This document shows positions 15,543-42,854 of a stretch of DNA of 64,000 nucleotides, one piece after another. Each line of letters begins with the position of its first letter. The first letter of the stretch is position 1. Location of the stretch: NCBI GenBank assembly GCA_044892525.1, contig CM097885.1, forward strand, positions 8,186,001-8,250,000, read 5' to 3'. The position numbers were made by a program, and so were the translations under genes. Under the pieces are notes generated by a model that was not told the origin of the DNA, did no database searches, and worked only from the letters and a program-made list of their open reading frames with translations. Source of the DNA: Schmidtea polychroa. Taxonomy: Eukaryota.

Positions 15543-16367
<825 letters not shown>

Positions 16368-17145
16368 TAATTAAAACAAATTATTTCGTTTTTTAAATAT
16401 TATTGGAAAAATCAATAAATTATTTAAAAAAATTTATAACAAAACTGTCAAATTCGATCAAATTATTAATTGAACCAATTTGATTTAAATTTTTCGGTGA
16501 AATTATGCGTGAATTAGATTTTGGTTTTAATAATACATTTTTCAACTTCTCTCTCTCTCTCTCTCTCTCGCTTATCTAATATCAAAGTTTTTCATCTTTT
16601 TATTCATCTCCTTTAAATTCTTTTCAATTTATTTCCTCGTGTTTAATGATTCATTTATTAAATGAAATTTTCTCTTCCACTTATCGATTTTCCTAATTAG
16701 AAATTGATTTAAATCAATGAATTAATAATAAATCAATTTTAGTTGAGATTATTTTTTGTTATGGATTGGGCTTGAATTTTGAAATCATTTGCAATGATTA
16801 ACTCCTAGATTTCCCATAATCGTAATTGAGTTATTGTTCAAATGGATTGATTGTTCATTTAAACTTGACAATTAAAACAAATAATTTTTATTGATTTATG
16901 AAAAGGCATGTAAGTAAACTATAGTTTAAAATATATTTTATCTTTTATTTATTTTCTGTCTCTACTAAAATATATTTTCATCTCTGTTAATTATTTCCTA
17001 CTTTCAATGACGTAATTGCTTTCCAGCATTCTTACTCATTTTATTCAAAATCAAAATGACAAAACAGTGACAGAAAAATGAGATAAGAGATTTCTAAAAA
17101 CACATAATAAAGAAAAAGCAACTTTAATTAATATACTACTACTAC

Positions 17146-17242
<97 letters not shown>

Positions 17243-18049
17243 CGTAATAAAATGTTCAATACTTAATTATTTTTTTTAAATATACAAAATAAAATTATTA
17301 ACTTTATATTCATTTTATTTTATATATTTTTGTTTTGAATCTGAAAATGCATTGTCAACAAAATACTTAAACAAATCCCTCATTTATTCATTGTTAAAAC
17401 TTAGAAATCTATATTTCACATTCAAAGAAAGTTACGACTGATAAATAAATTATTTATTCGGATTATTGTATTATACAAATAATTTAAAATTCATGTAAAT
17501 TACAATTGAAAATTTCAAAAAAATTTAGAAAAAAAATTTTGAAATAAAGGTTAAGCATGAAGTTTAGATATTTCAAATATGGTTAAGGAAGTGAAACTAA
17601 TAATATTGAAGCTAAATTGCAAAATACCAAAATGCATAATTATAAAATTTTCCATGCCAAAATGTGCAGCAAAACAATTTTTGTAACATTCCCATTCGCA
17701 ATTCGCATGTGACAGATACGTTTTTTGTGCTGGTGATATTTCAATTACTGTAATTAGTATTATAATTATTAAAAAATAATAAATATTACTATTATTGAAA
17801 TAGAAATTAATGAAACCGGCTATAGCTTATCACTTAAAACTTACTTATCAGAATTGTTACGTAATGGCAACAAGATAGTAAAATGAAATACCTATATAAT
17901 TGGGTGCTTAGTAAGATGGATGAAATGCTGTAAATGAACCGAAAGTTATAAATATTCCTCTGTTTATTCCGACACTTGACCGATATGCTATCTATAAATT
18001 CCAATAATTACACCCTCAGAAATTAATTGATAAAAATAATAAAATAACA

Positions 18050-18160
<111 letters not shown>

Positions 18161-18221
18161 ATTATTATATAAAACAATAAAGTGATAATTTAAGCCTTTT
18201 GATGCGAATAATGTATTTAAT

Positions 18222-18260
18222 GAAAAATTTTTCGACTATAAGATAGTCCTTATCAATCTG
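18222..18260 (-). ncRNA. Family-C hammerhead, older degenerate copy
   Basis: Reverse complement: CAGA-TTGATAA-G-GACTAT(CTT)ATAGTC-GAAA-AA-TT-TTTC. Cleavage site altered. Confidence 0.55.
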
Positions 18261-18447
18261 CAAGGAGAATTATTACTTAAATTATCACTTTATTGTTTTA
18301 AATAATAAATGCTGCTACCAAAAAATCATCACTTTATATTATTATTATTATTATTATTATTAAATGATGATTGCTTGGTAGCAGCATTTATTATTTAAAA
18401 CAATAAAATGATAATTTAAGCCTTTTGCTGCAAATAATGTATTTAAT

Positions 18448-18486
18448 GAAAGAATTTTCGACTATACGATAGTCCTTGTCAATCTC
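18448..18486 (-). ncRNA. Family-C U3-A8 minimal hammerhead in the PLE terminal repeat (left arm)
   Basis: Reverse complement: GAGA-TTGACAA-G-GACTAT(CGT)ATAGTC-GAAA-AT-TC-TTTC. Confidence 0.75.
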
Positions 18487-18893
18487 CTGGAATTTAGCAA
18501 TGTTCTTCTTCAAAATACCCTTCAATCTTTCTTTTATTTCCTTTCTCTTAATTCTCATTGGTTGTAAATATAATGAATTGTTTTACTAAAAACTTTTAAA
18601 ATTTTTTTTTATAATTTTTACATTTAAAATTTCAAAATGACACAAACTAAAATTTTTAAATTTTTTACAGCTTCTGTAATTAGCTTCTAGAAGCCTAATA
18701 AAATATTTGAAAATATTTTAAATAAAGCCTCCAATAACTACTTATATATGCTATTTAAATATTTCAATAAATGTGTCAATTTTGATTTTCAAACCCTATT
18801 TTTTAAAATTTTTTTCTATATTATTCTAATTATTACTTTTTAATTTATTCTTATTTTTTTAATTTCTTTGTATATTGTCAGTTATTCTCAAAG

Positions 18894-20339
18894 TCAATGA
18901 CAACAGATCAAATTCATGATTTCATTGATTTCTTCTTTAGTGTTGATCTTTGGCTGTCTGTTTATTATGAGAATTGCTTCTTTGATTCTGACATTTTTCT
19001 TTTGGATGTTTCCATTAGCTATGATTTCTATTGAAATATTTTTTCTTTCCTCTGTTGGCTGACACTGCCGGAGATGTCTGCCCAACGAGGATGTTCCACC
19101 AGGATCTAGATGTTCTTTAACTCTTTGGTGCAATGTCCTGAGGGTACTTCCAATGTAGATTTCATTGCATACATTGCACGTGATGCAATAGACGATGTTT
19201 TTTCTAAAGCACATATCTTTCGGTGTCTGGCAGTTTTTCATTGTGCAATTGTTTTCTCTATTTATGTTGCCTGCCAGAGCCCTTCTCAATGTCCAAGATT
19301 TATGTGCTATCCGAATTGGAAGACCGGTACGTTTAAGTTCTTTCAGGATCTTGAAGTCGAGTATGTCACTGATGAATGGGATATTCAGATAGAAATATTT
19401 CTGATTCTTTTGTGTTAATTCCCTAGATCTTCTTGGGGTAGAATTCATTTTTTCAATGTCCTCACCTTGGTATCCGTTTCGGTGTAGGATTTTATTGAAA
19501 TTTGATTGCTCTTTAAAGTTTTCGTTTTTCTCCGTGCATCGATTGGCTATTCTTCGTTTCTCGTTTCTTATGACATTTACTTTCTGTAAGTATGGAAGCG
19601 CTGATCTTTGGTGCATAAATATTTCTTTGCGAGCTGGTTTTCTGTAGAACCCGTATGTTGGAGTATTTTCTTCTATTTTGATTCTCAAATCCAATAAATT
19701 GAGGGATCCATCTTCTTCCGGATATTCGATTTCGAACTTAATATCTTGATGAGCCGCATTGAATGAATGAAATATTTCCTCCGCTTCTTTTCTGTTTTTG
19801 GTCAAGATGAAGATATCATCTACATATCTTGCATAGAAACCGATGGGTTGTATGGTCCTCAGTGTCTGTCGTTCGAGGTTATCCATAAAGATGATTGCTA
19901 GCAGTCCTGATATGCTAGAACCCATAGGCAGACCTTTAACTTGTTTATAGATATTTTGTTTAAAGGTAAAATAGGTGTTCTCGAGGATAACAGTAAGTAG
20001 TTTGGTGATATTCTCGGTATTCATTTCCTTTATTAACAAGTTGCTTTCTCTTAATTTCTTTTCTAAACATTGAATAGCCTCTGTTGGTTCGATAGATGTG
20101 TATAGTGATACGACATCAAGACTAAATGGGTATTGGAATTCTCTATGACAAGTCATGTTATTATTTAGTCTTGTCATGAGGCAGTCGCTGCTTTGAAGAT
20201 GGTGTGGTATCGTGTCCAATAAAGGTTTCAAGATCTTTGCAAGGAGCCAACTTGTTTTAGTTGTTGGTCCATTTTTGTTGGACACTATAGGTCTAATTTT
20301 GATACCAGGACCCTCTTTGTGAGTTTTAATTAGGTGGTA
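18894..20339 (-). CDS. PLE reverse transcriptase + GIY-YIG endonuclease, 5'-truncated copy
   Basis: Open frame with SLDVVSLYT, GLPMGSSIS, YARYVDDIF, NGY thumb and IVYCITCNVCNEIYIGST-R-R-EH. The frame runs to the inversion junction. Confidence 0.93.
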   Translation of the reverse strand, partial: YHLIKTHKEGPGIKIRPIVSNKNGPTTKTSWLLAKILKPLLDTIPHHLQSSDCLMTRLNNNMTCHREFQYPFSLDVVSLYTSIEPTEAIQCLEKKLRESNLLIKEMNTENITKLLTVILENTYFTFKQNIYKQVKGLPMGSSISGLLAIIFMDNLERQTLRTIQPIGFYARYVDDIFILTKNRKEAEEIFHSFNAAHQDIKFEIEYPEEDGSLNLLDLRIKIEENTPTYGFYRKPARKEIFMHQRSALPYLQKVNVIRNEKRRIANRCTEKNENFKEQSNFNKILHRNGYQGEDIEKMNSTPRRSRELTQKNQKYFYLNIPFISDILDFKILKELKRTGLPIRIAHKSWTLRRALAGNINRENNCTMKNCQTPKDMCFRKNIVYCITCNVCNEIYIGSTLRTLHQRVKEHLDPGGTSSLGRHLRQCQPTEERKNISIEIIANGNIQKKNVRIKEAILIINRQPKINTKEEINEIMNLICCH

Positions 20340-22070
20340 ACGAAAGACGAACAGGCAATATTAAAATCCCTTAAAAAGAAACCGTACGTTTACTTACCAA
20401 GTGACAAGGGGGGAGAATTTTGCATTATAGAGAAGAATCGTTACTGTGAAGCTGGTTACGAACACCTCGGCAACATCGAAACATACAAGAAAGTCAGCCG
20501 CATGTCACCAAACACCATCGAAATGAAGATCAACAAAGTATGGAAAGCCATAGCTTTGGAAATGAGGCTCAACAACAGAATAACCAACAGCTTCGTCACA
20601 AAAAATTCTGATCTTCCTAACTTCTACCACCTAATTAAAACTCACAAAGAGGGTCCTGGTATCAAAATTAGACCTATAGTGTCCAACAAAAATGGACCAA
20701 CAACTAAAACAAGTTGGCTCCTTGCAAAGATCTTGAAACCTTTATTGGACACGATACCACACCATCTTCAAAGCAGCGACTGCCTCATGACAAGACTAAA
20801 TAATAACATGACTTGTCATAGAGAATTCCAATACCCATTTAGTCTTGATGTCGTATCACTATACACATCTATCGAACCAACAGAGGCTATTCAATGTTTA
20901 GAAAAGAAATTAAGAGAAAGCAACTTGTTAATAAAGGAAATGAATACCGAGAATATCACCAAACTACTTACTGTTATCCTCGAGAACACCTATTTTGCCT
21001 TTGAACAAAATATCTATAAACAAGTTAAAGGTCTGCCTATGGGTTCTAGCATATCAGGACTGCTAGCAATCATCTTTATGGATAACCTCGAACGACAGAC
21101 ACTGAGGACCATACAACCCATCGGTTTCTATGCAAGATATGTAGATGATATCTTCATCTTGACCAAAAACAGAAAAGAAGCGGAGGAAATATTTCATTCA
21201 TTCAATGCGGCTCATCAAGATATTAAGTTCGAAATCGAATATCCGGAAGAAGATGGATCCCTCAATTTATTGGATTTGAGAATCAAAATAGAAGAAAATA
21301 CTCCAACATACGGGTTCTACAGAAAACCAGCTCGCAAAGAAATATTTATGCACCAAAGATCAGCGCTTCCATACTTACAGAAAGTAAATGTCATAAGAAA
21401 CGAGAAACGAAGAATAGCCAATCGATGCACTGAGAAAAACGAAAACTTTAAAGAGCAATCAAATTTCAATAAAATCCTACACCGAAACGGATACCAAGGT
21501 GAGGACATTGAAAAAATGAATTCTACCCCAAGAAGATCTAGGGAATTAACACAAAAGAATCAGAAATATTTCTATCTGAATATCCCATTCATCAGTGACA
21601 TACTCGACTTCAAGATCCTGAAAGAACTTAAACGTACCGGTCTTCCAATTCGGATAGCACATAAATCTTGGACATTGAGAAGGGCTCTGGCAGGCAACAT
21701 AAATAGAGAAAACAATTGCACAATGAAAAACTGCCAGACACCGAAAGATATGTGCTTTAGAAAAAACATCGTCTATTGCATCACGTGCAATGTATGCAAT
21801 GAAATCTACATTGGAAGTACCCTCAGGACATTGCACCAAAGAGTTAAAGAACATCTAGATCCTGGTGGAACATCCTCGTTGGGCAGACATCTCCGGCAGT
21901 GTCAGCCAACAGAGGAAAGAAAAAATATTTCAATAGAAATCATAGCTAATGGAAACATCCAAAAGAAAAATGTCAGAATCAAAGAAGCAATTCTCATAAT
22001 AAACAGACAGCCAAAGATCAACACTAAAGAAGAAATCAATGAAATCATGAATTTGATCTGTTGTCATTGA
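20340..22070 (+). CDS. PLE reverse transcriptase + GIY-YIG endonuclease, longer 5'-truncated copy
   Basis: About 577 uninterrupted codons: SDKGG, LIKTHK, RPIVS, YVDD, Cys-rich linker, VY..YIG, EAILI...PKIN. The GTG at 20334 belongs to the opposite arm, so it is not a true start. Confidence 0.95.
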   Translation, partial: TKDEQAILKSLKKKPYVYLPSDKGGEFCIIEKNRYCEAGYEHLGNIETYKKVSRMSPNTIEMKINKVWKAIALEMRLNNRITNSFVTKNSDLPNFYHLIKTHKEGPGIKIRPIVSNKNGPTTKTSWLLAKILKPLLDTIPHHLQSSDCLMTRLNNNMTCHREFQYPFSLDVVSLYTSIEPTEAIQCLEKKLRESNLLIKEMNTENITKLLTVILENTYFAFEQNIYKQVKGLPMGSSISGLLAIIFMDNLERQTLRTIQPIGFYARYVDDIFILTKNRKEAEEIFHSFNAAHQDIKFEIEYPEEDGSLNLLDLRIKIEENTPTYGFYRKPARKEIFMHQRSALPYLQKVNVIRNEKRRIANRCTEKNENFKEQSNFNKILHRNGYQGEDIEKMNSTPRRSRELTQKNQKYFYLNIPFISDILDFKILKELKRTGLPIRIAHKSWTLRRALAGNINRENNCTMKNCQTPKDMCFRKNIVYCITCNVCNEIYIGSTLRTLHQRVKEHLDPGGTSSLGRHLRQCQPTEERKNISIEIIANGNIQKKNVRIKEAILIINRQPKINTKEEINEIMNLICCH

Positions 22071-22475
22071 CTTTGAGAATAACTGACAATATACAAAGAA
22101 ATTAAAAAAATAAGAATAAATTAAAAAGTAATAATTAGAATAATATAGAAAAAAATTTTAAAAAATAGGGTTTGAAAATCAAAATTGACACATTTATTGA
22201 AATATTTAAATAGCATATATAAGTAGTTATTGGAGGCTTTATTTAAAATATTTTCAAATATTTTATTAGGCTTCTAGAAGCTAATTATAGAAGCTGTAAA
22301 AAATTTAAAAATTTTAGTTTGTGTCATTTTGAAATTTTAAATGTAAAAATTATAAAAAAATTTTAAAAGTTTTTAGTAAAACAATTCATTATATTTACAA
22401 CCAATGAGAATTAAGAGAAAGGAAATAAAAGAAAGATCGAAGGGTATTTTGAAGAAGAACATTGCTAAATTCCAG

Positions 22476-22514
22476 GAGATTGACAAGGACTATCGTATAG
22501 TCGAAAATTCTTTC
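22476..22514 (+). ncRNA. Family-C U3-A8 minimal hammerhead in the PLE terminal repeat (right arm)
   Basis: GAGA-TTGACAA-G-GACTAT(CGT)ATAGTC-GAAA-AT-TC-TTTC. 6-bp stem II, UUC site, predicted cleavage after 22510. Confidence 0.75.
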
Positions 22515-22561
22515 ATTAAATACATTATTTGCAGCAAAAGGCTTAAATTATCATTTTATTG

Positions 22562-22655
<94 letters not shown>

Positions 22656-23045
22656 AAGTTTAAAATTAATTTATCAATAGTGAAATAATTTATTAAAATA
22701 TAATTCAAATAAATAACTATGTAAGACATAATTTGCAGTATTTTTTTTATAAGTATTTAACTAACTCAAAAGCAAATAAATTTTGAAAATGGTATAGATT
22801 TGATTGTAATATATTGGGACTGAAATTTTAATTATGATTTAATTTTAAAAAGTTTTAATTTGCTTAAATTTATATACATTTTTGAAAGAATTTTGTTTGA
22901 GAAGAACGATTCAATTAGAAAAGAAGCATTAAAAGACTTGTTACATTTTGTATTGGAGTGATCTGAATCTATATTATGTCGAAATATTTCATTTTATAAA
23001 TAAATACTGCAAATTATGGCTTGCATAATGTTATGTTTGAATTTT

Positions 23046-23164
<119 letters not shown>

Positions 23165-25060
23165 ATAAACATTGTTCCAATCACGACGATGCAAAAATTT
23201 GACTAATCTCTGACACATTGGCCTATGTCCGAATCATTTCTACATGCATTTCATGCATTTCCTGTTTTCATTTCTCCACGCGCTGCAAGTCAAATTTAAT
23301 GAATGATGATAATAATTATCCAGAAATTTTGCTTTATTTATTTCTATATTTAAATAACAAAATAAATTTCGTAATGAAATTTTTCAACAGAAAATTCCTA
23401 TCTCGTCCACATTTAAGAAAATTGTTTACAAACATCACATCCGATGTAGTATTGAATAAATAAAAATATCCAATTCGTCCATTTTTTCTGATTAGTTTTG
23501 AGTGAAATTAAATATTCCGTATCTTTAGTTAAACAAAAAAAATGAATAAAAAAAGAATGAGAAAATTTATCAATAATATTTCAACTATTATTGTGAACCG
23601 TAGCATATGGCATATATACATATATGTTTAATTTTGACTCACCAAAACCCATCAATTGGAATTTTCTAATGAATTATTAATGTAATGAGCTCATTTCATT
23701 TGCGTAGAGTATTCACTTTCAAAAAAATCTCTTACAAGCTGAGATCCCATTGATGCATGAATGATGAATTTGGTACCCATTATTACGGCAAGTACTTCAA
23801 CCTGGCTTGTTTTCCTTTTATTGTCAGAATATCTTTGTATTGTGCTTAATTGACGCAAATATTTGCATGTTTTGTTGGTTTAACGGTTTCCTTTGATAAA
23901 GGTGATTTCAATTGCAATTTAAATACAAGTCCATACATTGTCGGTGGTTGCATTGAATGATTTCCAAAGAAAGTGTACGAAATTTTGATAATCTTTGAAT
24001 GACAAATTTATAAAATTGTTTTTGGAATTGCTAGACAAAATCGTAAATAAGTTGATGAAGAAAATTAAATTCTCTTAGAGAATCGGTGACAAGAGTCCAG
24101 AGGTTGTTCTAGTTGTAATTAACATTTTAGGGCGTTTTTTTATTTTTTGTGAAGTATTTATTCTTTTGTACTTATCGTTCTATATTACTTAATAATTGTC
24201 TCACACACACACGCATATATATATATATATATATATTTGTGTGTGTGTACGTATGTGTACACCTTATTGTGATTTATTATAATTCATTGCTTTTATAAGT
24301 TTCGTGAAATCGCAGTTCTTTGCATTGTTTCTATACTAAAGTATGTCTAGACCTTTCCTTTATTTTTAGCTGTCAATTTACTTTGCGCGAGATATTAGAG
24401 ACAAATTTTATATTTGCGTCTACGGTTGGAATTATACAAGATTTATTAAATTTTTCAGCCGAAATAAAAATAAAACTTCATTTATTTCTATTTATATTTG
24501 TCATTATGAATCCTTCAAGAAAGATACAGATCATTCATTTCCTCATTACTCTCTAAGTAAGTAAAATCTCATAATTAACTTTGTTTACTCAGATCATTAT
24601 TATCTCTAAAAGTGAAAATAAGCATTATTTTTAACAAAATATTTACTTGAAAAAATATATTAGAAAAAGAAAGACAAACAAGAAAATAGTCTAATTATAA
24701 TCGTGTTAGAAAAGAAAAATTTAATTTTTCTTAATTTTCTATTTATTATTTAAAAGTTCGTCTGTGGATATATTTCCCAAAATATTATTTCATAAAAACA
24801 TTTCCCAAAAGAAATTTCATAAAAATAAAGACCAATTTTATTTTGGTTTTATTTTATATTTTTACAATTGAACATATTTGCCTCATTTTGCAAATAAAGA
24901 GAATTGGTGAAATTATTATTTGTTTGTTGTAAACCCTCACTCATTTAACCCCATCTTCTTCTGACTTCACCTTTTGACTGTTAACTGTTTTAAGCAGAAA
25001 TTGTAGAATCAAATATCCTTGTGGTAAATTCTGATTTCCCTTTAATTTTCTTAATAATAT

Positions 25061-25487
25061 TATAAGAACTTTTTTTTCAAATTTCACCACTGATTTCTTT
25101 TCCATTCCCATTGTATTTATTAAAAGGCTTGACTATTAATCAGTAAATATATCGATGTTTTTGATATATTTACTGATTCATAGTCAAGCTTTTTAATAAA
25201 TACAATTAATACAATTAATAACAATCACAAATAGGAAATATTATTTGTGTAATTAAAATATAATTAAAACAATAAATTTATTATAAAATATGAAATAAAT
25301 TTATTTTTCCCCAACAACAATTGGTAAATCCAATAATGATCAAATTCACTTGAAAAAAGGCAGTGCCGAAAATTCGTGAGTATCAACAAACATCGATATA
25401 TTACTGATTTATAGTCTTCAAGATCTCTTTTTAATAAATTCAATGAAAAAAATATTCAGTGGTGAAATTGGAAAAAAAGTTCTTATA
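25061..25487. mobile_element. PLE family-A terminal repeats: minus copy with snap-back (25061-25206) and plus copy (~25230-25487)
   Basis: Dispersed repeat with further copies at 7091, 28395, 32497, 35433, 43243, 55639, 57113, 57705 and 63925. Linked to a GIY-YIG remnant at 57465-57680. Confidence 0.8.
25344..25381 (+). ncRNA. Family-A U3-A8 minimal hammerhead
   Basis: ATTCAC-TTGAAAA-AA-GGC(AGT)GCC-GAAA-AT-TC-GTGAGT. 6-bp stem I, predicted cleavage after 25375. Confidence 0.7.
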
Positions 25488-28366
25488 ATAATTAATAATG
25501 ATAATAGTATTATCATTAATAATAATAATTAAAAATTACTACCAAGAAATGTCACAATTAAAACGTCTAAATCCTTTTTTTGAAAATTCGGCTGTATTTA
25601 ATCAAAATAAAATTATAAATTTTTCTCTAATTTTAAATGGTGTTCTTAATTGATTGTTGAAATAATCAATATTATTGATTATTTTTGTGAAAGATAATCG
25701 ATATTTTAATTATCTCAAAAAGTGTTTGAATTGAACAGAAACATCCGCAAAAATTAAATCCCATCACTCCTCCATTCCAGTCATTTACTTATTCGATTTT
25801 CTTTACTTTTCTCCATTGAGAAATTATTCGATAAAATTTTACGTTTTTTATGTGATTTATTTTTATTTCTTTAGTATCCTATGGCAATTTTATTATTGGT
25901 TTTTGGTGTCTAGAGATGCAATTAAATATATACCCCCCTTGAATATATTTTTACGGGTTAATCCAATGATACAAGATGGTTATGGTTTTGAATTTCCGTC
26001 AGTATCATCTCTTTGTTATGTTGCCTGGACGCTGATTTTGGTTTCCAATACTTTCTCTAAAGTTTTCAATAAAGTATTGGTAAAGTTATATTGAAAGCTA
26101 AAAATAAAAAAAAATTTCCCAATATCAGAAAATGTCAGTCTTGCCATAAAAATATTTAACCTACATTGGATGAATAATAGGCAATATTTTATCAGTTATT
26201 AATATTGTTGCAAAGGTATTTTCCCAAACAATTGTTTTAATATTTGGATTTGTGAATTATAAATGATATTTTCCCTTTGGTATCTATTTTATTTGGCAGA
26301 TGGATTGTCTATATCTCGGTTATTCTTGTATTAAGTTTTCGCTTTTACGGTTGTAACATCATTTCCAACATTGCTGAAATCAGGAGAAGCTGGGTTTGGG
26401 AAAGATTATCTCGACACTATCCAGGCTAACAATATGTAACATTTAACAAGATTTCTTACAAGTAGTTACAGTGCATAGAATTAGGAATATTTAAAATACC
26501 AGAAATTTTAGTACCAAATTCAGGAAAATTATTGATTTTTTTGTTTTAATTGAAAGCGGTTTCGTTCTAATTTTATTTGTAATGGTTTTCAACAGTAAAT
26601 CTCCACCCAGGCCGAGTAACCGTTGGCGGAGTAAAAATAAAATACAGCCAAATCTTTCTATGACCAATTTTTTATTTCCAAAAAATACTCTTTAAAATAA
26701 TTGTAACATTAGAAAATCAAAATACGTTATTAAAAATATTTTTTAAAAATTGTTTTGCCCTCTCCCTAGGTACGCTATTTGTTTGGAATATTTGTAAATG
26801 GAATATAAGAACTTAATGACAAATTAAACTGTTAATAATTTAATTAAATTTAATGGTATTTTTAGTAATATCTATTACAATTACCAACTAAATGTAATTG
26901 TAAATAATCCATCAATTATTTCGTAATCAAGAACATCAATCATATTTAAACATTTATCCAATGAAATTTTAGCATACTAATCTCAATTATTTTTCTTTCA
27001 TCGCATTCAAAAAATTAAAGATTACATTAATTAATAATTTATTATTACTGTTTTTAACCTTTTCTCCAGGCAATTTTTTCTTGCGTTTAATATTTATTGA
27101 TAAATTACGAAATCACTTTTGAAAGGCGCATTAAAAATCGGAATTCTATATACTGAAAAACAAGAATATACAGTAATTGGGCTACATTGTTGCTGGATTT
27201 AATAACGAGTCATTGCCTTACGAAATTGGAATAGACTTGACAATGTGAATAATTAGAACGATAATGAGTCGTAAGAACCTCAATAGAATTTCTCCCGGAA
27301 TAAACATTTGCCTCACTAATCTCTCATACACACTGGCAAATACTCAATTGCAAATATCAGCAATTTATTAAGGATTTAACCAAATATGTATTTGGTTCAT
27401 ATGTTTCCCCGAATTTTTGTTTAAGCACAAAACATTTTAGAGCAAGCAGTTTAATATTTGATTGACTGAATCGAAATGCCTGTTTTTTTCTTTTGAGAGA
27501 AAGTATAATTATTGTTGATTAAATAAACAAATTCTATTCAGAAATTCTGTCAACAGAATCCCATTGACATTAGTCACGGTTTCATGGGTATCGCATTTGA
27601 ATTAGCGGTTTGAGATAATAAATTTATTAGAATTTTTGTTTCAATAAACCAATAAAATTACATCACTAAATTATTATTTCCAAAACTAAAATGAAGCGCA
27701 GTTATTTGCTTTCATAGTTTAATCTATTTAAATGTATTCTAATTTCTCCCGTTTTTTCATAAATGGATCGAACTTCTTTCATCTTGCAAATAACTCGTTT
27801 TTGTCATTAAATTTTTTTTATTTTTAAACTTCTGTCATCTAAATATACTATTAAAACAGATTTCCGTCAATTTATAACAAATATTTATGCAATATTTTAT
27901 TAAATTCTTCATCAGTGACCGAATATTTTATATTTTTCTCTCTTTATTTTATGACATTAGAGATAAATAAATTCGTGTTAAATAAATAAAAATATTGATT
28001 ATAGCCTGAAATATGATATAGTAATATTCCTATTATTATTATATAGTATTGTAATAAAATAAAATAATTATAATAAAATTTTAGTAGGTATTTTATTAAA
28101 AAATAAATCTGGAATGATCATTCTTCATATTTTTACCAAATTATTTACAGTTCTGATTGAATAGTATGAAAAACTGCAAAATATTTTATCTAAATAATTT
28201 TTTTGAATATATTATGAGAAAAATGCTTTTCGTCTTATCATGACAATCTCCATAATTAACACATATATGATTATAAGTCTTAAAGAAACACAAAAAAAAT
28301 AAAACTCAAATCTAAAATAAAAATTTTCATTACATTAAATTGTTTTTATTCCTTCTTAATATTATT

Positions 28367-28394
<28 letters not shown>

Positions 28395-28397
<3 letters not shown>

Positions 28398-28560
28398 AAC
28401 AACTTTTTTTTATAATTTCATCCCCGATTTCTTTTCCATTCTATTTATTAAAAAGCTTGACTATGAATCAGTGAATCAGAAAAAGGCAGTACCGAAAGTT
28501 CTTAAATATCAAAAACATCGATATATTTACTGATTCATAGTCAAACCTTTTAATAAATAA
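28395..28560. mobile_element. PLE family-A tail-out inverted pair with truncated hammerhead (~28478-28505, +)
   Basis: A minus-strand 3' end is joined to plus-strand GGCAGTACCGAAAGTTC...CATCGATATATTTACTGATTCATAGTC. Flanked by (AAT)n. Confidence 0.7.
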
Positions 28561-28953
28561 TAATGTTATTATTAATATTATTAAGAAATAACTATATGAA
28601 CAACTTAAATAAAAAGAAAGCTATACTACTTGCTTATTATACTACTTATTTTATAAAGTTATACACAATGCTACATGTTACACTATGTTATATAAGGTGA
28701 AAATCGAGTTATTAAATTCCATTTCATCACAATATCATCTGTCGTATTAATATATAAGATAGAAGAGACTGTTATGTAATTATGATTTTAAAACATGAGA
28801 CTTGTTTCATCAAAGGTTCCTACATGCAACAACGCACATTCATGCATACATCAAACAATTAATTAGCTTTATTATTAAGTGATAATACACTATACAAAGT
28901 TTTTATGGCGTTCTTTTCTATTTACCCTAAAATCTTTATCCTAAAAAATAAAA

Positions 28954-29070
<117 letters not shown>

Positions 29071-32029
29071 GTTAGCAATTTATTCTTCCTATTTTTTTCA
29101 TTTATTGTTCCAAATTAAATACATTTCTTTTGTCTAGGACTTATTTTCTTAGACAATTCAACATCCATTATCTGTGCCTGTATGTAATTACTTCAATTTC
29201 TTTTGTTCCACAATTCATATAATGCAACGAAAAGAACCAATAAGAATTACACTACCCATACAAATAACATTTTGTTCTAGAGGAAAATCAAGTGGAAAAT
29301 AAAATAAAATGACGTTTTTTCATTCCTTGACAAAGAAATAATAAATACAATATTTACATTTTGTTAAATTTACAATTTACATAAATTGAAAAAGTAAACA
29401 AGAACCATATATTGAGGGAAATTAGCAATGTATTCATGTTAAAATACCAATTGTGACTTGAAGGTTTGAAGGTATCAATAGCTAATTCTATCTACCAAAC
29501 GCTTTTTAACTTAAAACTGAAATGTATTTTACTCATTGATATTTACTAGGAAGCCCTTCCTTTCCAAAAATCACTCCATTCTCTTTTTAAAACTATAATT
29601 TTCTTTCCATTTCTTTAATTAATTTATTATTTCCCTTATTTTCTGATCCTAAGTTCGAATAAAAAAAATAAAAAATTTACATAACATTCATTAAAAATAA
29701 TGATTTTATTAATTGCGTAGCAGGTCTATAAAATCTTTTACCTAATTCACCACTGATCGATTATTTTTAATTTTTTTCCTTATTTAAAAAAAATAATAAA
29801 TCAATAATTTAAATTGTACACATATTTTATTATAAACACCTCAAACAGTGAAGGATAAATTAAAATATCAGTTTAAAAGGTTTAATAAAGTTAGTGAGTC
29901 TAGCTAATTTAACTGACAAGTACCTATTTATGTTTGCCTATGTACCAGACATGGTTAAAGAAATAAGGCATATACTGGATATTAATGTTTTAAGATTCGT
30001 AAATCTTACTATTTGAAAAAAATGTGGTTAGATTAACTTTTGTTGGATATTCGATATCCTAGGAGAATTTTGGCTTGAGTTTATTTGATTCATTATTTTG
30101 TATCAATGAAACAGTGCTCAATGTCTTAATTCAAGCAGTTTAAAGGGAAAGTACTTCATATAGATGAAATTTATTAAAGGCTTAACCAAGTCCAAATTAA
30201 TCTTTTGTAGGCCCTAGCCACTTTTACTTTTGAAGTTCCTCGTTTAGTATTACTAAAGGATTTTTTTATAAATGCATTTTGTTTTGCACAATAAACATTA
30301 AATTATTTCAATTTTAGTGTAGCCTTTTTTCGTCCTCTAATTGTAATATTTAGGTTTTCTTATACCCTAGGTACAGTGCCTATTGTGAATTCGACCCTAT
30401 TCAACTTGTTAAATATGATATTACTATTTGTAATCCGTCAAAACGACAGGCTTTTTCATGTTCAATTTTCAGCTTTAGATAATTTGTTATTTTTATATAT
30501 TACTACTGTATAAATCGAAACACATTGCTCTTTTCTAAAATTTTATTTTTATATTAAAATATTTATATAAAAAATCAATAACTAATAATCAATTAGTATT
30601 CATTTTAAACCTTTAAATAGCATTGCATCCATACATTGTTACATATGAAATTATGTATTCAGATTAATTTTATTGTCTCCAGTTCAGCTTAACAATATGA
30701 CCAAATGGAAAACGTTTAAATCCTCTGGGAAATTCGGAACTTTTGTAATAATTATTTAAATAAAATGACTAAAATTTTTGCATATTCATTTATTTAATTT
30801 TCATATTACTTTAACAATGATGTAGATCGGAATTATTTCTGCATTTAATCGAATAAAATATTAATATTTAATTTACCATTTTCCCTGAAAAATTTTACGG
30901 AGGCTCATAAAACCGAGCCAAGTGAAACCAACATGAAAATTGAATCCCCCGAGGAAGCCTATATGAAAAATAATAGAACCCGTTAATTAAAAGTAAAACG
31001 AAATAAACATATTATAATTAATCTCTTACACATCTGGCCAATGGCTGGGAGAGGGTCGAATAATATCTATATGATTTACTGCACAATAATTTATTCAGTG
31101 GTTCTTATATGGGATTTATTAAGATTGACGTGCACAGTACAAACTCAATACGATAGTGCAATAATCAATAGCTTGTAAAGACACCACATTAAATGGGAAT
31201 AAAATCGAGGTAGAGAAATAAATCCCAAATAGTCTAAGTGACAAGAGAAATTAAAGAAAAAAGAAAGTTAAAGTTTCCTAAAAAAAGAAAAAAAATCAAA
31301 ATAAAATGTTTGTCCAATAAATAAATTTCTTTTATAATTATTATTAACGGCAGTTTGGTTGGATTGATAATGCAAGATTACTAATCAAGCAGACAATGCA
31401 TAATTCCCGGATAATTAGATTATAATAATTAACTTCCTTTTAAGTGCGGTAGGATCAAGGGATTTTCTTGAAATAATTTGTCCTCTCGTAATGTCAATCA
31501 CTTTCTCTATCATTTTCAACATCCACATTTGTCATTTTGGATTAGCTCGATTTTCGGTTGATCGCTTTTTTATATAGATTTTCTTTTCATTTTACACAAA
31601 AACTTTCATTAGATCATTCTTTATTTATTTCTCATTTTAACTATTGATTAATTAATTACTAATTTGTTTTTTATTTATGTATTTGTTTATAAAAAAGATT
31701 TATTTTTCCCATTGACAATTAATTATTTTTTGATATTCAATTTATTGTTATTATTAATTATTTTTTTCGAATTTATTTGATTAAAAAATTATATTATAAT
31801 AATTATTTAAATTTGATAAATAAGATTTTTAAAATTATTTTTCACTATTGATTATTTTACTTTTTTAATAACACGCATTTTAATTTTAACAATCAATGAA
31901 TAAAACAAAATTATTTAACTTAATAAATTAACTTTTCAATACATTTGAAAACTACAGCAATTCAAACCACAGGCATTCAATTTACCACTGAAACCTATTT
32001 AAAAACATTCAAAACTCGTGCTCACAGCC

Positions 32030-32300
32030 TTTTAAACATTAGTTTTTGGATTCAATGATTTTACCAATAAAGCTTTATGTATTATACATTCCCAATAATT
32101 ATTAACATTTTTGAATAAAATTTTAGAATCAGATATGCCTATTTTATTCATATAACTATTATTGTGTTTACTAATAATGGTCAATTATGTTCATGAGCTC
32201 GAATACAGAAATAAAGTCTTTTCAATGTATGTGGCATTACAAGCATTACATGTAAATTGCTAAACGAGATTTGAACACAATCCAGCCGGATTGATAGATT
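32030..32300 (-). pseudogene. PLE family-B GIY-YIG endonuclease remnant
   Basis: Minus-strand GLCSNLV*QFTCNACNATYIEKT..FCIRAHEH ... ALLVKSLNPKTN. Similar to 63512-63730. Confidence 0.75.
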
Positions 32301-32496
32301 GACAAAAACAAGTTTCTCTAAATAATCATGATTTATTTCCAAATTGAAATAAATTTCAAACCTAGTCAATCATTAAAATCATTAAAACCATGACATAAAA
32401 GAATTAATGAATAACAATTTAAATAAAAATTCAAAGAATTAATCATTGGTTGAATATTTATTAAATGGCATTATGATTTAATCAACAATATCTTAC

Positions 32497-32636
32497 TATA
32501 AGAACTTTTTTCAATTTTCACCACTGATTTCTTTTCTATTGACATTATTAATTAAAAAACTTGACTATAAATCAGCAAATATATCGATGTATTTTTTTGA
32601 AATTCACGAATTTTCGGCACTGATTTTTTCGAGAAT
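32497..32636 (-). mobile_element. PLE family-A terminal repeat with degenerate hammerhead (32602-32636)
   Basis: Reverse complement contains CAGTGCCGAAAATTCGTGAA. The 5' half of the core is mutated. Confidence 0.7.
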
Positions 32637-34358
32637 TTTAATAAAAACAATATCTTAATTCATATTACCCCAAATAATTATCAAAAGATAAACATAAAAA
32701 TTTTATTATCAATTTATTATTCCGTTGAATATATTCCACATATTCAGTGGTATTGCTGAAACCTTTCAAGTGGCTTTTTCTGATCTTTAATGTCAAGATA
32801 AAGAAAAGTATCTCCAAGTTATATGACGTTCCAGTCATTAATTGCAAATTAATTAACTAAATTAACACTAAACCAATTTAATAATTGAACTTAAAATATA
32901 TTATTAAATTAATTAAATTAAAATTAAATTAATTGTAACTAAATCAAATTAAAATCATTGTTTAAATAATCTTCATTTTTTTCCAAAATCAAATTAAATA
33001 TTAAAAAACAATTAATGAATCATTCAACTTCCCAATCATTAAATCTCATCAGAACCAATAAAGAAAATATGCCAGACATTCAAGACATTCGTTTTCTCAG
33101 CTATGATCTCTCTGATGATGGTCAAGATCTTCAACAATCTCCGTACAATCGCCAGATCAAGTGTCCGCGCTTTCGTTGGTACATTGACTACTGGAGCAGA
33201 TATATCAATTATTTATTTCAATGTCCTTTTGAATAAAATCTTTATTCGAATTAGTTGTATGTCTCTACAGGTACTTTAAAAATGAAACATTCTACTTGAA
33301 AGCATTTCACAATTCTATGTCTAATAGTTATAAATTAAAATAAAGATTATTGAAATGAAATGAAATGTAATTTCTAATGGTAGATTAGTCTATAGCTTAT
33401 TCGTATTTTATCAATAACATTTCAGACTCTTGACGTCCCAGGAATATAACCCAGTGATCTAGCAGTTATATCTTCCTTACTGAGTCGCATTGAATGCCAC
33501 ATTTGTATGTAATTACATTTTAAATAGCTTTTCATTAGAAATTACATCGAATATCACAATACACTTTATTTTTAAATTTTTTTATCTTTATTTAATTAAT
33601 TTAAAAATGATTTTCTGATTTAAGTCCAACGAGATCTTCAGTATAACAAAAGTAAATCAATAAAAACAAATAATTAAAATGAAAAATAATTTTATTATAA
33701 AGATTTTCAAATAGGAAAGAGAAGTTTACTAATCTAAACTGTTCTGATTTATCGAATGTGCAAATTTCAAAATGCCCATATAAATCTCCATTACAACATG
33801 GGCTTAGTCTGGTCTATCTAATTGATTTACAATTGAAAAATTAATTAATTTTAATAAATAAATAAAATTGTGTTCATTAAACAATGTAACACCGATATAA
33901 TTGTATACTAACACATTCAGGCGGGGAGGGGGCCCAAATGCCGGTCATAATTGCTATAGAGTTTGACTGCAATCTGATCATAAATTGTCATGGTCAAGCG
34001 GATATTGAAAGGAAATTGAGATTAATGAAAATTGGGTTTCCCTTGTTTCATGACAACAATGTTAATTATGTTTTCTATCTTCATGTTTATTATTTCACAG
34101 TTGTTATAAGTATGCTTGTTTATTAATAACCAAATAAATAAATCAATAATATTGATAAACAAATTATTTACAATATTGGAAAACCAATAACCGATTTATA
34201 AATATTTGATAACATCTTATTGTTGTATACAAATGTGATTTAATGAAGATTGTCAACATTTATTTTAAATTTTTAGAAAATATTATTGATTAATATTGAT
34301 TATCTATACAATTTTATTGATTTTTTGTTTATTTTTATGTTTATACAGTGCATAAAAT

Positions 34359-34719
34359 GGTGAGCTTTCGGCCCGGGTTCTTTTTTTGTGGTTAGTTAAA
34401 TAAAAACTTACACTTGATTATTTTTTATTTTATAATATATTTAAAATAAGAAAATTAAGAAGTTTATAAAATAGATTTGTATTTTAAAGGCAAAAAATAA
34501 TAATGCTTTTAATCATATAAAGCTTCAATTATCTTAATAAATGATCTCTCACCATAATTTCTTTTAAACATAAATTCATAAAATAAATCGGTAATGTTGC
34601 AATCAGTTGTGGTGCTCCGAGCCCTAAATTTCTTTTTAAAATAGCTCCAGGTTCCTTCAATCATTTAGTTAGTTTTTTTTTAACTAACCACAAAAAAGCG
34701 CCCGGGCCGGAAGCTCACC
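34359..34719. mobile_element. Merlin-type MITE
   Basis: ~40-bp TIRs starting GGTGAGCTT and a perfect 8-bp TSD CATAAAAT (34351-34358, 34720-34727). Confidence 0.85.
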
Positions 34720-35480
34720 CATAAAATAATAAATGTTTACTTTACTATTCTCAGACAAAGCTGGGTGTTAATTGAAATAATATAAATATGAATATAAAGT
34801 TACCAAAATAATAAAATGAAATGTTGTCCATATTGTTATTGTTATAGTATGAAAACAAATTTCAATTTTTATGTTATATTTGATGCAATTTCTAATGGCT
34901 GGTTAATTTTCTGCATATACGACTTTCATTAGTACCATTTAAGGAGATCAAAATAAAATGTGTCAGCTTGAACTTTTTTTATCATCTTTTTATTTTTACA
35001 TATTTTTTTTCAGTGTGAAGGTTGAGTACCAACAGAAGCTTGGAAACGAATTTAAATGAGGGGTGTATTCAATCATAATGTCACTTGAAACAAAAAGCAC
35101 AATATGTTTCCAGACTTGAAATAGGATCTATTACTTCTATTTAAATTCCCGTTTAGTCAACGGCGATATGGCGTAACTTTTAAGTAATTACTAAGTTATA
35201 AAATATATTCACAAGAGTAGTTTCAAAGTTCAAAAACACTAGCAATTTTGAATATTTTTCAAAAATCTCGTGGCACATAGGTTGGGAAACACTGCTTATA
35301 TATTTCGTTTTAATTAAGTTATTCATTTGACAACTTTTGCTTTAATTTTAAATTTGCTATTATAATTATATGTAATATGTGCAAAGCCATTTGAATCTTC
35401 TTATTATACATATCTCTAATAAATTTATTAAATAGAGAGTTTGAAGACTATAAATCAGTAATATATCGATGTTTGTTGAT

Positions 35481-35517
35481 ACTCACGAATTTTCGGCACT
35501 GCCTCTTTCAAGTGAAT
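35481..35517 (-). ncRNA. Family-A hammerhead (A9G variant)
   Basis: Reverse complement: ATTCAC-TTGAAAG-A-GGC(AGT)GCC-GAAA-AT-TC-GTGAGT, within a family-A repeat at 35433-35530. Confidence 0.6.
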
Positions 35518-35715
35518 TTGATCATTATTACATTTAATAATTAATTATTTTGTACATAAGTCGTATAGTTAAATTTTATATACCTAAATCTGCTTCATTT
35601 TTTTGGTTACCTTTAATCTGTTATTTAATGAAATTTATATTATTTTAATTTTGAAAAATTATCAAAATTTCAAAATAACTTAATTCTGCTTTTTTAATCC
35701 AAAAACCTAAGGATC

Positions 35716-35820
35716 ATAATTATTTATAATATTTATAATTATTTATAATTATTTATAATTATTTATAATTATTTATAATTATTTATAATTATTTATAATT
35801 ATTTATGATTATTTATAATT
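35716..35820. repeat. 10-bp tandem repeat (ATAATTATTT)n
   Basis: About 10 direct copies, read directly. Confidence 0.92.
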
Positions 35821-36429
35821 TAATAATTGATGCCAATTCCACAATTTGTTTTTATTTATTTCTTTGGAAACACAGTTTTACACAGATAACCAAAAATGAC
35901 TGGCAGAAAGCTTTTAGAAAATGGTGAATTGATATGTAAATTAATTATTTAATAGAAAATTTTAGAAAAATTCAAAATTAAATATTAAAATACACTGAAA
36001 TTGATTTAATTAAAATTAGAGTAAAAATTAAAATTATAACCATATTTTTTATTTTAAAATAAGTTTAAATTAAAATATAATTATTTCGATACATATAATG
36101 AATATCGGTAAAATCGTTTTTGGTACTCTTTGATCTATTTTCGTATTTTGATATTTCATTTATTTTCATTATGACATAAGATCAAAGTTTAATTTTATAA
36201 GCAACACATTAAATTTCGATCTTTTGAAAAAATTTAAAGAAATAACAAATCATATGTAAAGAAATATTTGCTGAGTAAAATCAATTATTTATTCTTCTTA
36301 AATTTGTTCAAATAATCTTTTTAAAATATACATATGTATTACAACTTATTAAAGATCCATGTAATTAATACTAGAAGTTGTGATGCTAGCAATAATAATA
36401 TTAATAATAATAATAAAAATAAAAATAAA

Positions 36430-36513
<84 letters not shown>

Positions 36514-36629
36514 TCATTATCATTATTATAATCAGAATATGTCAACATCGCAAATGGATAAAAAATAATCTGGTATAATATAATAATAATGTATTAATGA
36601 TATTTTTATCTTTACAATCATTATTATTA

Positions 36630-36733
<104 letters not shown>

Positions 36734-37009
36734 GTTTAATTAAAAATGAAATTAAATAAATTTCAAGTTGATGTTGTGAAAAGAAAATTGTCGATGGCGC
36801 ACGAATACAAGTTGCGATATTTGTTTCAGCGGCATTTCATTTGTTTTTACAATGTTCTTCAGAATCATGAGAGAAAGATCAAAAGGATCCACCGCAGAGA
36901 CAGCAAGCTCCTACACTTATTATCAACTTCGACATTATATAACAGACTGCAAGTTTATTTTAAAAATTATGCACAGGTTTATGTCATATAATAGAAATAA
37001 TAAAAAAAA

Positions 37010-37071
<62 letters not shown>

Positions 37072-37376
37072 GAAGAAGAAGAAGAAGAACAAGATAAAAA
37101 ATAATGAATTAATATATTACTATATACCTCAAAACTAATTTCATGCAAATATTGAGGAATATGTAGAGAATATTTACTATTATCCAAATAGTTTCTATTT
37201 CAAACTTTTACAGATTATTATTATTTTTATTTTTATTATTATTATTATAGGCACTCGTTTCTACAAAATATTTTTTATGTAAACAAATAAAAATGTATTC
37301 ATATTATCATTTTTAGGCGTAAACTTTTGGTTTTTGTCTTTGGATTATCCCATGACTAAGTTGCCAAAATTAGATA

Positions 37377-37420
<44 letters not shown>

Positions 37421-37848
37421 CTAGTGAAAATATATTTTCAAAATTTACAATATTTAAAAATTTTCAAAAATAATTTTAAATCAATTTCGTTTTTAATGTA
37501 AATTTTAACTGCTGGAATTAATGAAATGTTTTAATTATTTGCCTATAAATATCATTAAAATATCAATTCCACAAACACAGCCGGGAATAAATTCTGCCAA
37601 GGAAGCAAATCATTTACCATGCCAAATATCGAATATAAATAATTGGCTGAAGGAGCACAATTAATATTTCAATTATCCAATAATCCTGCCGGCTATCTCC
37701 ATTGGTTACCGAATTCACATGTCAATGGCATTTAAACAAAATTTAACAAGGTCAAACTGTCGTTAAATTTATTAGGTTTTTTTTAAAAAAACAACCACAA
37801 TAATAATAATATTAATAATTATTATTATTTTTTTTATTATTATTAATA

Positions 37849-37934
<86 letters not shown>

Positions 37935-38265
37935 CTATACAAGGATGTTGACAGTTATGATGGGATTATGAAAAAATCAATAATAAAATTTCATAAACAA
38001 ATTCCGTGACAGAGAATCCACGAAGCACTCATTCAGTAGTTGAACTGGGTTAAGGGAATCGTGTTTGCTGGCAGGGATGGCATTCGATTAAATGTCAAAC
38101 CCATTTCTGTCAGGCGGGCTTTAGGAAATTCGTTTTATTTCAATTCTGCTGTCATCATTTTCAATATATTAATATTATCAAGTGCTTTTAGTAATTTTAT
38201 TATTCTAGTTTTTTATAAAAAATATTAATCATCCTTATAACTATAATAATAATAATAATAATAAT

Positions 38266-38373
<108 letters not shown>

Positions 38374-39538: not shown

Positions 39539-40203
39539 GGTGCTAAGTAATTTTAAAAATTTAAGGTAAATCATACAAAATAATGTCTTCATTATCTATA
39601 GAACTCAAAGTTGAGTTTTCGGAATTTTCGTTAACAATATTTTCATTCATTTTTCTCTAAAAAATTCTAAAAATGTCTGTAAATGATTTATTATTGTGCG
39701 TTTATTCATTGCAACAATTCTACATATCGAAAATTTGCATGCCTATTTTACTATGTGTTGTGTTTGTGTGTGTCAGTTTATTTTTTCTACCACTAAATGT
39801 GTTTATTCATTGCAACGCTAAAAACCAACACACATGTAATTTTGTAGGTTTATATAATATACACATATTGATTTTATTTTTACATTATATGATTCGTTTA
39901 TTCAGTGCAAACAGGTGTAAATAAAAGCTAAGTTGATTTATGCTAAGTAAAATTTTGATATACTTTGTAAATAAATTGGATGTCAATCATTGACCAATCA
40001 TTTCGCTTTATTAATCGATTTACTGATTTTCAATTATATTCTTTACTGTATTTTTACTTAACAAAAATTTGTGATTACTTTGTCTAGATACTTTTATTTA
40101 AATACTAAGCAAATACTCCTTCTATGTTTAGATTTATGTTCAATAAATTACTTTGAAAAAATGGAATTTTTTACTTAGCTTTTATTTAAAATTACTTAGC
40201 ACC
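39539..40203. mobile_element. Non-autonomous DNA transposon (superfamily unresolved)
   Basis: Perfect TIR GGTGCTAAGTAATTTTAAA / TTTAAAATTACTTAGCACC, flanked by TTTA / TAAA. Confidence 0.7.

Positions 40204-42729: not shown

Positions 42730-42854
<125 letters not shown>

What the first reader, a model, noticed from the sequence alone, without database searches (positions are those of the whole stretch)
18396..22566. 4.2-kb near-perfect tail-out palindrome of a young Penelope-like element in an ELAV intron
Seen: arms 18396-20339 and 20625-22566 (~1.94 kb each) with a 285-bp unique spacer. I counted only about 5 substitutions (including YFTFKQ vs YFAFEQ) and a small poly-A/T indel. Both RT-GIY-YIG frames are open and both are 5'-truncated at one junction. 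Established: PLEs often integrate with inverted 5'-truncated segments. Inference: the host pre-mRNA would fold a ~1.9-kb dsRNA, a potential endo-siRNA/piRNA or ADAR substrate able to silence the family in trans in cells expressing this gene. The arm differences may mean two RNA templates were used.
Basis: partly seen in the sequence, partly recalled or inferred. Interest (0 to 1): 0.7.

Follow-up and report, generated by a model that had tools for sequence, protein, structure and literature searches.

The report
Head-to-head Penelope retrotransposon pair in intron
Two shortened, recently inserted copies of a Penelope-like jumping gene sit back to back in an intron of an ELAV gene; this is the usual, long-described way these elements insert, and the idea that the pair makes a silencing double-stranded RNA is plausible but already described elsewhere and not shown here.

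Summary
The inverted repeat is in the sequence: 18396-20339 against 20625-22566, 1937 of 1944 columns identical, inside a ~32-kb intron of an ELAV gene. The 285-bp "unique spacer" is the in-frame upstream part of the right copy's ORF, so the copies are truncated at different points. The left copy also has a 34-nt 3' tail that the right lacks. An adjacent inverted 5'-truncated copy, a one-sided 30-40-nt tail, a microsatellite target and a U3-A8 minimal hammerhead near each 3' end are all published features of endonuclease-bearing Penelope-like elements. Seven older head-to-head pairs from three families lie in this window. Each arm holds sequence the other lacks, which argues against an assembly fold-back and mildly favours two cDNAs, primed from both ends of one break and joined head to head. 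Reads have not tested the junction. The pre-mRNA could fold a 1.94-kb hairpin, but siRNAs from inverted Penelope copies are already reported in Drosophila, where they silence poorly. Nothing here shows small RNAs or editing. Three look-ups found no earlier scan note on this family. Verdict: an ordinary young member of a known kind.

The parts
18362..18395 (-). 34-nt 3' 'tail' of the element, present only on the left copy (boundary +/- 3 nt where it merges with the microsatellite)
   Evidence: Matches older copies at 18276-18334 (+, 93% over 59 nt), 47095-47202 (-) and 13379-13486 (-). Absent after 22566, where (ATT)29 starts.
18396..20339 (-). Left arm: the more deeply 5'-truncated copy, antisense to the ELAV pre-mRNA
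   Evidence: 1937/1944 identity to the right arm.
18894..20339 (-). Left ORF remnant, 481 codons plus stop: RT core, Cys linker, GIY-YIG
   Evidence: Open frame; profile positions 376-849 of 850, E 6.9e-195.
18448..18486 (-). Minimal type-I hammerhead motif, left copy
   Evidence: Descriptor hit with core at 18482, mirror of the right-hand motif.
20340..20624 (+). 'Spacer': 285 nt of the right copy's ORF that the left copy lacks (contains the DKG motif); would be the loop of the hairpin
   Evidence: In frame with the right ORF; aligns to full-length relatives; its two ends are not complementary.
20340..22070 (+). Right ORF remnant, 576 codons plus stop: DKG motif, RT core, C-x4-C-x6-C linker, GIY-YIG with CxxC; about 280 N-terminal residues missing
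   Evidence: RVT_1 E 1.5e-14 and GIY-YIG E 8.2e-06. Best relatives 42-47% identical, many 820-880 aa. 238-388 residues lie upstream in the 35 relatives over 800 aa among the top 60.
20625..22566 (+). Right arm
22071..22566 (+). AT-rich 3' region, presumed 3' UTR plus pseudo-LTR (start of the pseudo-LTR not determined)
   Evidence: 20% GC against 37% in the ORF. Carries the hammerhead. A short frame from ATG at about 22404 shows no similarity to relatives' N-termini.
22476..22514 (+). Minimal type-I hammerhead motif: U3-A8 core, extra base before a 6-bp helix II, palindromic AATT at helix III, 4-bp helix I
   Evidence: 0 of 2000 shuffles of the 3' region hit at strict settings and 6 of 2000 at relaxed settings. 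Same traits as in PMC4209133. No Rfam hammerhead match.
18338..18361 (+). (ATT)8, left flank of the insertion
22566..22652 (+). (ATT)29, right flank; same strand polarity as the left flank, as expected for one interrupted tract
18170..18334 (.). Older head-to-head remnant of the same family (90-nt arm on -, 25-nt arm plus tail on +, about 92% identical); the new insertion lies in the microsatellite that follows it
16348..48625 (+). Host intron (about 32.3 kb) splitting the first RRM of an ELAV/Hu-family gene; limits approximate
   Evidence: Exons of the near-identical database protein P0121 map to 15966-16358, 48625-48735, 49237-49398, 60367-60846 and 62263-62625; donor site; ELAV-named relatives.

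Best explanation
It is a genuine, recent, non-autonomous insertion of an endonuclease-bearing Penelope-like retrotransposon (RT followed by GIY-YIG, Nematis-like by motif) in the canonical head-to-head inverted form, placed in an (ATT)n tract of an ELAV intron. Shown: two unequally truncated copies, a one-sided tail, hammerhead motifs, and (ATT)n of the same polarity on both flanks. Inferred: the element's endonuclease broke the tract. Both 3'-OH ends primed reverse transcription near the 3' end of element RNA, at points 34 nt apart. The two cDNAs stopped 285 nt apart and were joined head to head. I put this two-ended route at about 55% and the published self-primed hairpin route at about 40%, given a genuine insertion. 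The pair cannot transpose by itself: about 280 N-terminal codons and any upstream pseudo-LTR are missing. The intronic hairpin is a by-product that probably forms when the gene is transcribed, with no evidence of a selected or family-wide role.
For: Arms and open frames. Spacer is element ORF. The tail is element sequence found in older copies. Hammerhead above chance. Seven older head-to-head pairs of three families in this window, three of them with a clear one-sided extension. The same architecture, 30-40-bp tail and microsatellite bias are described in PMC8557442, and head-to-head is called the most frequent arrangement in PMC3846280. No self-complementarity at the junction. Joining of two oppositely extended ends is inferred for LINE-1 inserts in PMC11702581.
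Against: No reads were laid across the junction, so assembly error is argued against only from sequence. No full-length source copy or genome was available, so junction microhomology and the pseudo-LTR limits are unknown. Published work favours self-priming for these structures and explains the tail by endonuclease resolution, which would also give unequal ends. A target-site duplication cannot be seen inside the microsatellite.
Confidence: 0.85

Rival explanations
1. Same insertion, but made from one template: a self-primed or folded-back cDNA formed a long hairpin intermediate, which the GIY-YIG endonuclease resolved with a staggered cut, leaving the tail on one end. The six arm differences arose after insertion.
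For: This is the model proposed in PMC3846280, with the tail explained as in PMC8557442. Arms are 99.6% identical, and all five substitutions are G/C-versus-A/T differences in a 25% GC window.
Against: No palindrome at this junction, which was the published evidence for self-priming. A fold-back of a cDNA primed on the right flank could not add the tail to the left arm (inference).
Confidence: 0.35
2. A functional hairpin silencer like maize Mu killer: ELAV transcription yields a 1.94-kb duplex that is diced into siRNAs which lower the family's RNA in trans.
For: 1940 pairs, longest perfect run 856 bp, 3 of 5 substitutions are G-U wobbles on the pre-mRNA strand. Precedents: Mu killer (PMC3440606 abstract); siRNAs matching inverted Penelope regions.
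Against: No small-RNA or editing data here. The Drosophila siRNAs did not silence Penelope efficiently. Inverted pairs are common here, so this locus need not be the main source. ELAV genes are often neuronal, and intronic RNA is short-lived and nuclear (own knowledge), which would limit a heritable effect. The host lineage, and so its small-RNA pathways, is unresolved.
Confidence: 0.12
3. Assembly or library fold-back artefact.
For: Tandem and inverted PLE insertions are known to trouble assemblies. No read-level check was obtained.
Against: The arms differ at six sites. The mirror stops at the element's 3' end and does not run into flanks. Flanking exons are collinear. The left arm has 34 nt of true element sequence that the right arm lacks. 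Older diverged pairs have the same layout.
Confidence: 0.05

Closest known systems
Canonical endonuclease-bearing Penelope-like elements with inverted 5'-truncated copies (Drosophila virilis Penelope, Adineta vaga Pen families; PMC8557442, PMC3846280, PMC2377424)
   Same: RT with DKG followed by GIY-YIG; inverted truncated copy at the 5' end in head-to-head orientation; 30-40-nt tail on one end (34 here; 31 in Pen2a, 34-bp repeat in D. virilis); minimal hammerhead near the 3' end; microsatellite target.
   Different: No full-length copy or direct pseudo-LTR tandem in this insertion. The inverted part is 1.94 kb and holds most of the ORF, longer than the ~200-bp inverted pseudo-LTRs in the A. 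vaga passages read, though D. virilis inverted repeats are described as large and variable. Target is (ATT)n; the passages read name (TA)n, (CA)n and (C)n.
Nematis clade, in particular the PNL2_SM row of Fig. S2 in PMC8557442
   Same: Short Cys linker directly before the GIY-YIG; by eye, a close match of the residues around GIY and YIG. Atlas neighbours are mostly nematode, flatworm and arthropod clusters.
   Different: Linker is C-x4-C-x6-C, not the full CX2-5CxxC. YIGST instead of YIGET. No tree with named references was built.
Minimal hammerheads of metazoan PLEs, U3-A8 variant (PMC4209133)
   Same: U3-A8 core, unpaired base before helix II, G10.1-C11.1, short helix I, palindromic helix III; pairs of motifs on opposite strands are also described there.
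   Different: Helix II is 6 bp here (7-8 bp in Schistosoma mansoni). Cleavage not tested.
Maize Mu killer and siRNA-producing inverted Penelope copies (PMC3440606, PMC3681739)
   Same: Inverted duplication of a transposon coding region, transcribed from a host gene.
   Different: Here it is intronic, and neither small RNAs nor silencing are shown.
LINE-1 twin-priming inversions and two-template inserts (PMC11702581)
   Same: Two oppositely oriented cDNAs joined inside one insertion.
   Different: Twin priming gives adjacent segments with 1-10-bp overlaps or gaps; here 1.94 kb is duplicated, closer to the two-template class.

Membership tests
EN+ Penelope-like elements (C-terminal endonuclease) | RT with DKG motif followed by a C-terminal GIY-YIG in one ORF | tested here: met
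EN+ Penelope-like elements (C-terminal endonuclease) | CCHH motif with two cysteines between GIY and YIG | tested here: met
   CxxC between the motifs and two downstream histidines, read from the translation; definition
EN+ Penelope-like elements (C-terminal endonuclease) | Inverted 5'-truncated copy adjacent to the 5' end | tested here: met
   definition
EN+ Penelope-like elements (C-terminal endonuclease) | 30-40-nt tail, often on one end only | tested here: met
   34 nt at 18362-18395, left end only
EN+ Penelope-like elements (C-terminal endonuclease) | Minimal hammerhead motif near the 3' end | tested here: met
   (own descriptor; 0 of 2000 shuffles strict). Rfam gave no hammerhead match. 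Activity untested.
EN+ Penelope-like elements (C-terminal endonuclease) | Direct pseudo-LTRs around a full-length ORF | not testable with these tools
   Both copies are truncated and no genome was held
EN+ Penelope-like elements (C-terminal endonuclease) | Target-site duplication | tested here: inconclusive
   Both flanks are (ATT)n
Nematis clade | CX2-5CxxC zinc-finger-like linker before the endonuclease | tested here: inconclusive
   C-x4-C-x6-C here, with similar three-cysteine spacing in the 22 of 25 top relatives that matched the pattern; resembles the PNL2_SM row, which also lacks one cysteine
Nematis clade | RT phylogeny groups with named Nematis elements | not tested
   No named reference proteins among the hits
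Naiad/Chlamys | N-terminal endonuclease; DKA motif in Naiads | tested here: not met
   Endonuclease is C-terminal, motif is DKG
Hydra clade | DKT motif, no CCHH | tested here: not met
Penelope/Poseidon clade | No cysteine linker between RT and endonuclease | tested here: not met
   Cysteine linker present
Mu-killer-type hairpin silencer | Long inverted duplication under a host promoter | tested here: met
   (transcription inferred from the intronic position)
Mu-killer-type hairpin silencer | siRNAs from the arms and silencing of other copies in trans | not testable with these tools
   No small-RNA data
LINE-1-type twin-priming inversion | Inverted segments adjacent on one template, overlap of 1-10 bp | tested here: not met
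   Overlap is 1944 bp

The most novel reading that the evidence does not exclude
The two arms were copied from two different RNA molecules at the two ends of one break in an (ATT)n tract, one template possibly A-to-I edited (two A/G differences 6 nt apart, both after a T). The product acts as a host-transcribed 1.94-kb intronic hairpin that damps its own family in trans. That would give direct genomic evidence on how Penelope-like elements form inverted insertions, which published work leaves open, and a natural animal counterpart of Mu killer.
Probability: 0.07. Interest if true: 0.55.

Novelty: new member of a known kind. Interest (0 to 1): 0.2.

Why it matters
As it stands, little: it is a clean young example of the standard Penelope-like insertion. 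Its use is as a test case. How these elements build inverted repeats and one-sided tails is unresolved (PMC8557442 discussion passages; PMC3846280). This insertion has six diagnostic differences between arms, and the window holds seven older pairs, so a genome-wide survey of this species could separate two-template priming from self-priming. The 285-nt unpaired loop is also a built-in control for hairpin-derived small RNAs or editing.

Tried and rejected
Whole genome: none held, so no source copy, copy number or junction microhomology. Sequencing runs for 20250-23060: 20 of 24 listed runs hold the stretch or part of it, 12 with half the words or more, from 8 studies. This shows that similar family DNA exists in public data but does not test the junction, and the best holder may be the assembly's own sample. 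No RNA holder listed. No reads were laid, so junction and polymorphism stay open. Rfam at E <= 5 on 17500-23500: 4 matches, all below gathering score, no hammerhead; the MIR8675 hit is the small inverted repeat formed by the old and new tails. Thermodynamic folding of seven 3'-end stretches gave no unusual stability: z from -1.18 to 1.55. The short frame from about 22404 as the element's N-terminus: no match to a profile of 46 relatives' N-termini, best E 0.11, so unsupported. My idea that the ATT-like and AAT-like patches in the 3' end fix which strand primes: rejected, because the older copy at 18170-18334 has the tail on the opposite side. ADAR editing of a template as the cause of the two clustered A/G differences: chance of such clustering is 0.06, and C-to-T decay explains them equally, so a lead only. 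Cryptic polyadenylation: AATAAA is rarer in the insertion (2.6/kb) than in the rest of the intron (4.5/kb). Host lineage from an ELAV tree: quick tree only, query on a long branch, unresolved. Earlier scan notes: 5 returned by place, none on this family; 0 by sequence; 0 by words. A bioRxiv paper on retrozymes (10.64898/2026.07.22.740005, passages) added nothing.
Full report
Observation. Self-comparison of the window gives one long inverted repeat, 18396-20339 against 20625-22566, with 1937 of 1944 columns identical. In right-arm coordinates the differences are G/A at 20997 and 21003, T/G at 21431, T/C at 22288, a 2-nt indel at 22354 and C/T at 22438; only the first two change residues. Both copies have open frames pointing outward. 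The right one has Pfam RVT_1 and GIY-YIG matches. Its best database relatives are 42-47% identical and many are 820-880 residues long (193 hits among 8000 scored candidates, 120 listed).

Host gene. A near-identical database protein, P0121, whose relatives are named ELAV-like, maps to + strand exons at 15966-16358, 48625-48735, 49237-49398, 60367-60846 and 62263-62625. The insertion therefore lies about 2 kb into an intron of about 32 kb. The host lineage was not resolved (quick tree, long branch).

Two corrections. First, the 285-bp spacer is element sequence. The right-hand frame runs through it and includes the DKG motif. Against a profile of 46 full-length relatives, the right ORF covers positions 280-849 of 850 and the left 376-849. 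The copies are truncated 285 nt apart, and both lack the N-terminus, so neither is autonomous. Second, the left copy runs 34 nt further 3' (18362-18395). This extension is element sequence, because it recurs in older diverged copies at 18276-18334, 47095-47202 and 13379-13486. Both flanks are (ATT)n on the + strand, as expected if one tract was interrupted.

Each 3' region holds a minimal type-I hammerhead motif (22476-22514 on +, 18448-18486 on -): U3-A8 core, one extra base, 6-bp helix II, palindromic AATT, 4-bp helix I. My descriptor found it in 0 of 2000 shuffles of that region at strict settings and 6 of 2000 at relaxed settings; whole-window shuffles gave 0 strict hits in 40 and a mean of 0.3 relaxed hits. 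The older copy at 18256 keeps the core and helix II and varies at the free core position and in the loop. Rfam did not detect it, and plain folding shows no unusual stability. PMC4209133 (parts 1-2 of 4 read) describes these traits, including the U3-A8 variant and pairs of motifs on opposite strands.

It is the local norm. Seven older head-to-head pairs lie in this window. Same family: 18170-18259/18276-18334 and 47095-47202/47282-47369. A second family: 42878-43103/43809-43936 and 63216-63428/63747-63827. A third: 57162-57370/57688-57890, 25053-25166/25217-25492 and 7102-7142/7337-7391. Polarity of the latter two families comes from a hammerhead at 42978 and GIY-YIG scraps at 57758 and 63781 on the minus strand. 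Three pairs show a clear one-sided extension (18170, 42878, 57106). Not all abut long microsatellites: the pairs near 25053 and 63216 are over 1 kb from a tract of five or more units.

Comparison with published work. [quoted passage not shown] PMC3846280 (passages) calls head-to-head the most frequent arrangement, reports a 31-bp optional tail, and proposes self-priming. PMC2377424 (passages) describes large, variable inverted repeats, a 34-bp repeat, and promoter activity in the 3' pseudo-LTR of D. virilis Penelope. By motif the element is not Naiad/Chlamys, Hydra or Penelope/Poseidon. Its C-x4-C-x6-C linker looks, by eye, most like the PNL2_SM row listed with Nematis. That is a resemblance, not a tested membership.

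How it formed. Each arm holds sequence the other lacks, so neither is a plain copy of the other. A cDNA primed on the right flank and folded back could not add the tail to the left arm. The junction shows no self-complementarity. I therefore favour priming from both ends of one break, followed by head-to-head joining, as inferred for some LINE-1 inserts in PMC11702581 (passages and one section read). A free self-primed hairpin cut by the endonuclease remains a close rival. The six differences do not decide it: all five substitutions oppose a G or C to an A or T and can be decay after insertion. The two A/G changes 6 nt apart have a chance probability of 0.06.

Artefact. Unlikely (about 5%): the arms differ, the mirror ends at the element's 3' end, the flanking exons are collinear, the tail is one-sided, and older pairs repeat the layout. 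No reads were laid on the junction, so this rests on sequence alone. Public runs hold similar DNA (20 of 24 listed, 8 studies) but do not test the junction.

The double-stranded RNA idea. The pre-mRNA can form 1940 pairs, with a longest perfect run of 856 bp, so a hairpin probably forms when the gene is transcribed (inference). What follows is unshown. The idea has precedent: Mu killer (PMC3440606, abstract only), and siRNAs that match the inverted regions of rearranged Penelope copies in transgenic Drosophila, which the same review says do not silence the element efficiently (PMC3681739, passages). ELAV genes are often neuronal (own knowledge), which would limit any effect on heritable transposition. 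I give trans-silencing that matters about 12%.

Verdict. A real, young, well-preserved example of a known insertion type. Interest 0.2. Its value is as material for testing how Penelope-like elements make inverted repeats. I make no claim that this family or locus is absent from the literature. Supplementary sequence files of the cited papers, which I searched only by a few terms, may already hold close relatives.

Noticed in passing
window 18170-18361: An older mini head-to-head remnant of the same family lies directly left of the insertion; the new element sits in the (ATT)n tract that follows it, so the same tract was hit twice. Old and new tails form a small inverted repeat (18276-18420).
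   Followed up: yes
window 42878-43936 and 63216-63827: A second Penelope-like family as head-to-head pairs, with a C3-G8 minimal hammerhead at 42978 (-), a one-sided extension at 42878 and a GIY-YIG scrap at 63781 (-).
   Followed up: partly
window 57106-57890, 25053-25492, 7102-7391, 28394-28590, 32490-32640, 35415-35543, 55631-55729: A third, abundant family of short 3'-end remnants, several as inverted pairs; a GIY-YIG scrap at 57758 (-) resembles by eye the PNL2_SM row in PMC8557442 Fig. S2. My hammerhead descriptor did not hit this family.
   Followed up: partly
window 7394-7507, 43939-44050, 59111-59245, 36430-36732: Palindromic microsatellites in which an (AAT)n run meets an (ATT)n run; two of them adjoin element ends and may be fold-back products.
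   Followed up: no
window 22179-22375 (mirrored in the left arm): Imperfect internal palindromes (67-75% identity) in the AT-rich 3' region of the element.
   Followed up: no
window 22470-22476: A possible splice acceptor (TTCCAG) ends at the 5' edge of hammerhead helix I, as described for the D. virilis Penelope intron in PMC4209133; no pyrimidine tract precedes it, so weak.
   Followed up: no
window 15603-16347: The ELAV first coding exon has a long asparagine-rich N-terminal region; the database model P0121 starts differently, from another frame near 16073.
   Followed up: no
window 18362-18900: If the 3' pseudo-LTR has promoter activity, as in D. virilis Penelope, the left copy would drive antisense transcription toward the ELAV exon 2 kb away.
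   Followed up: no
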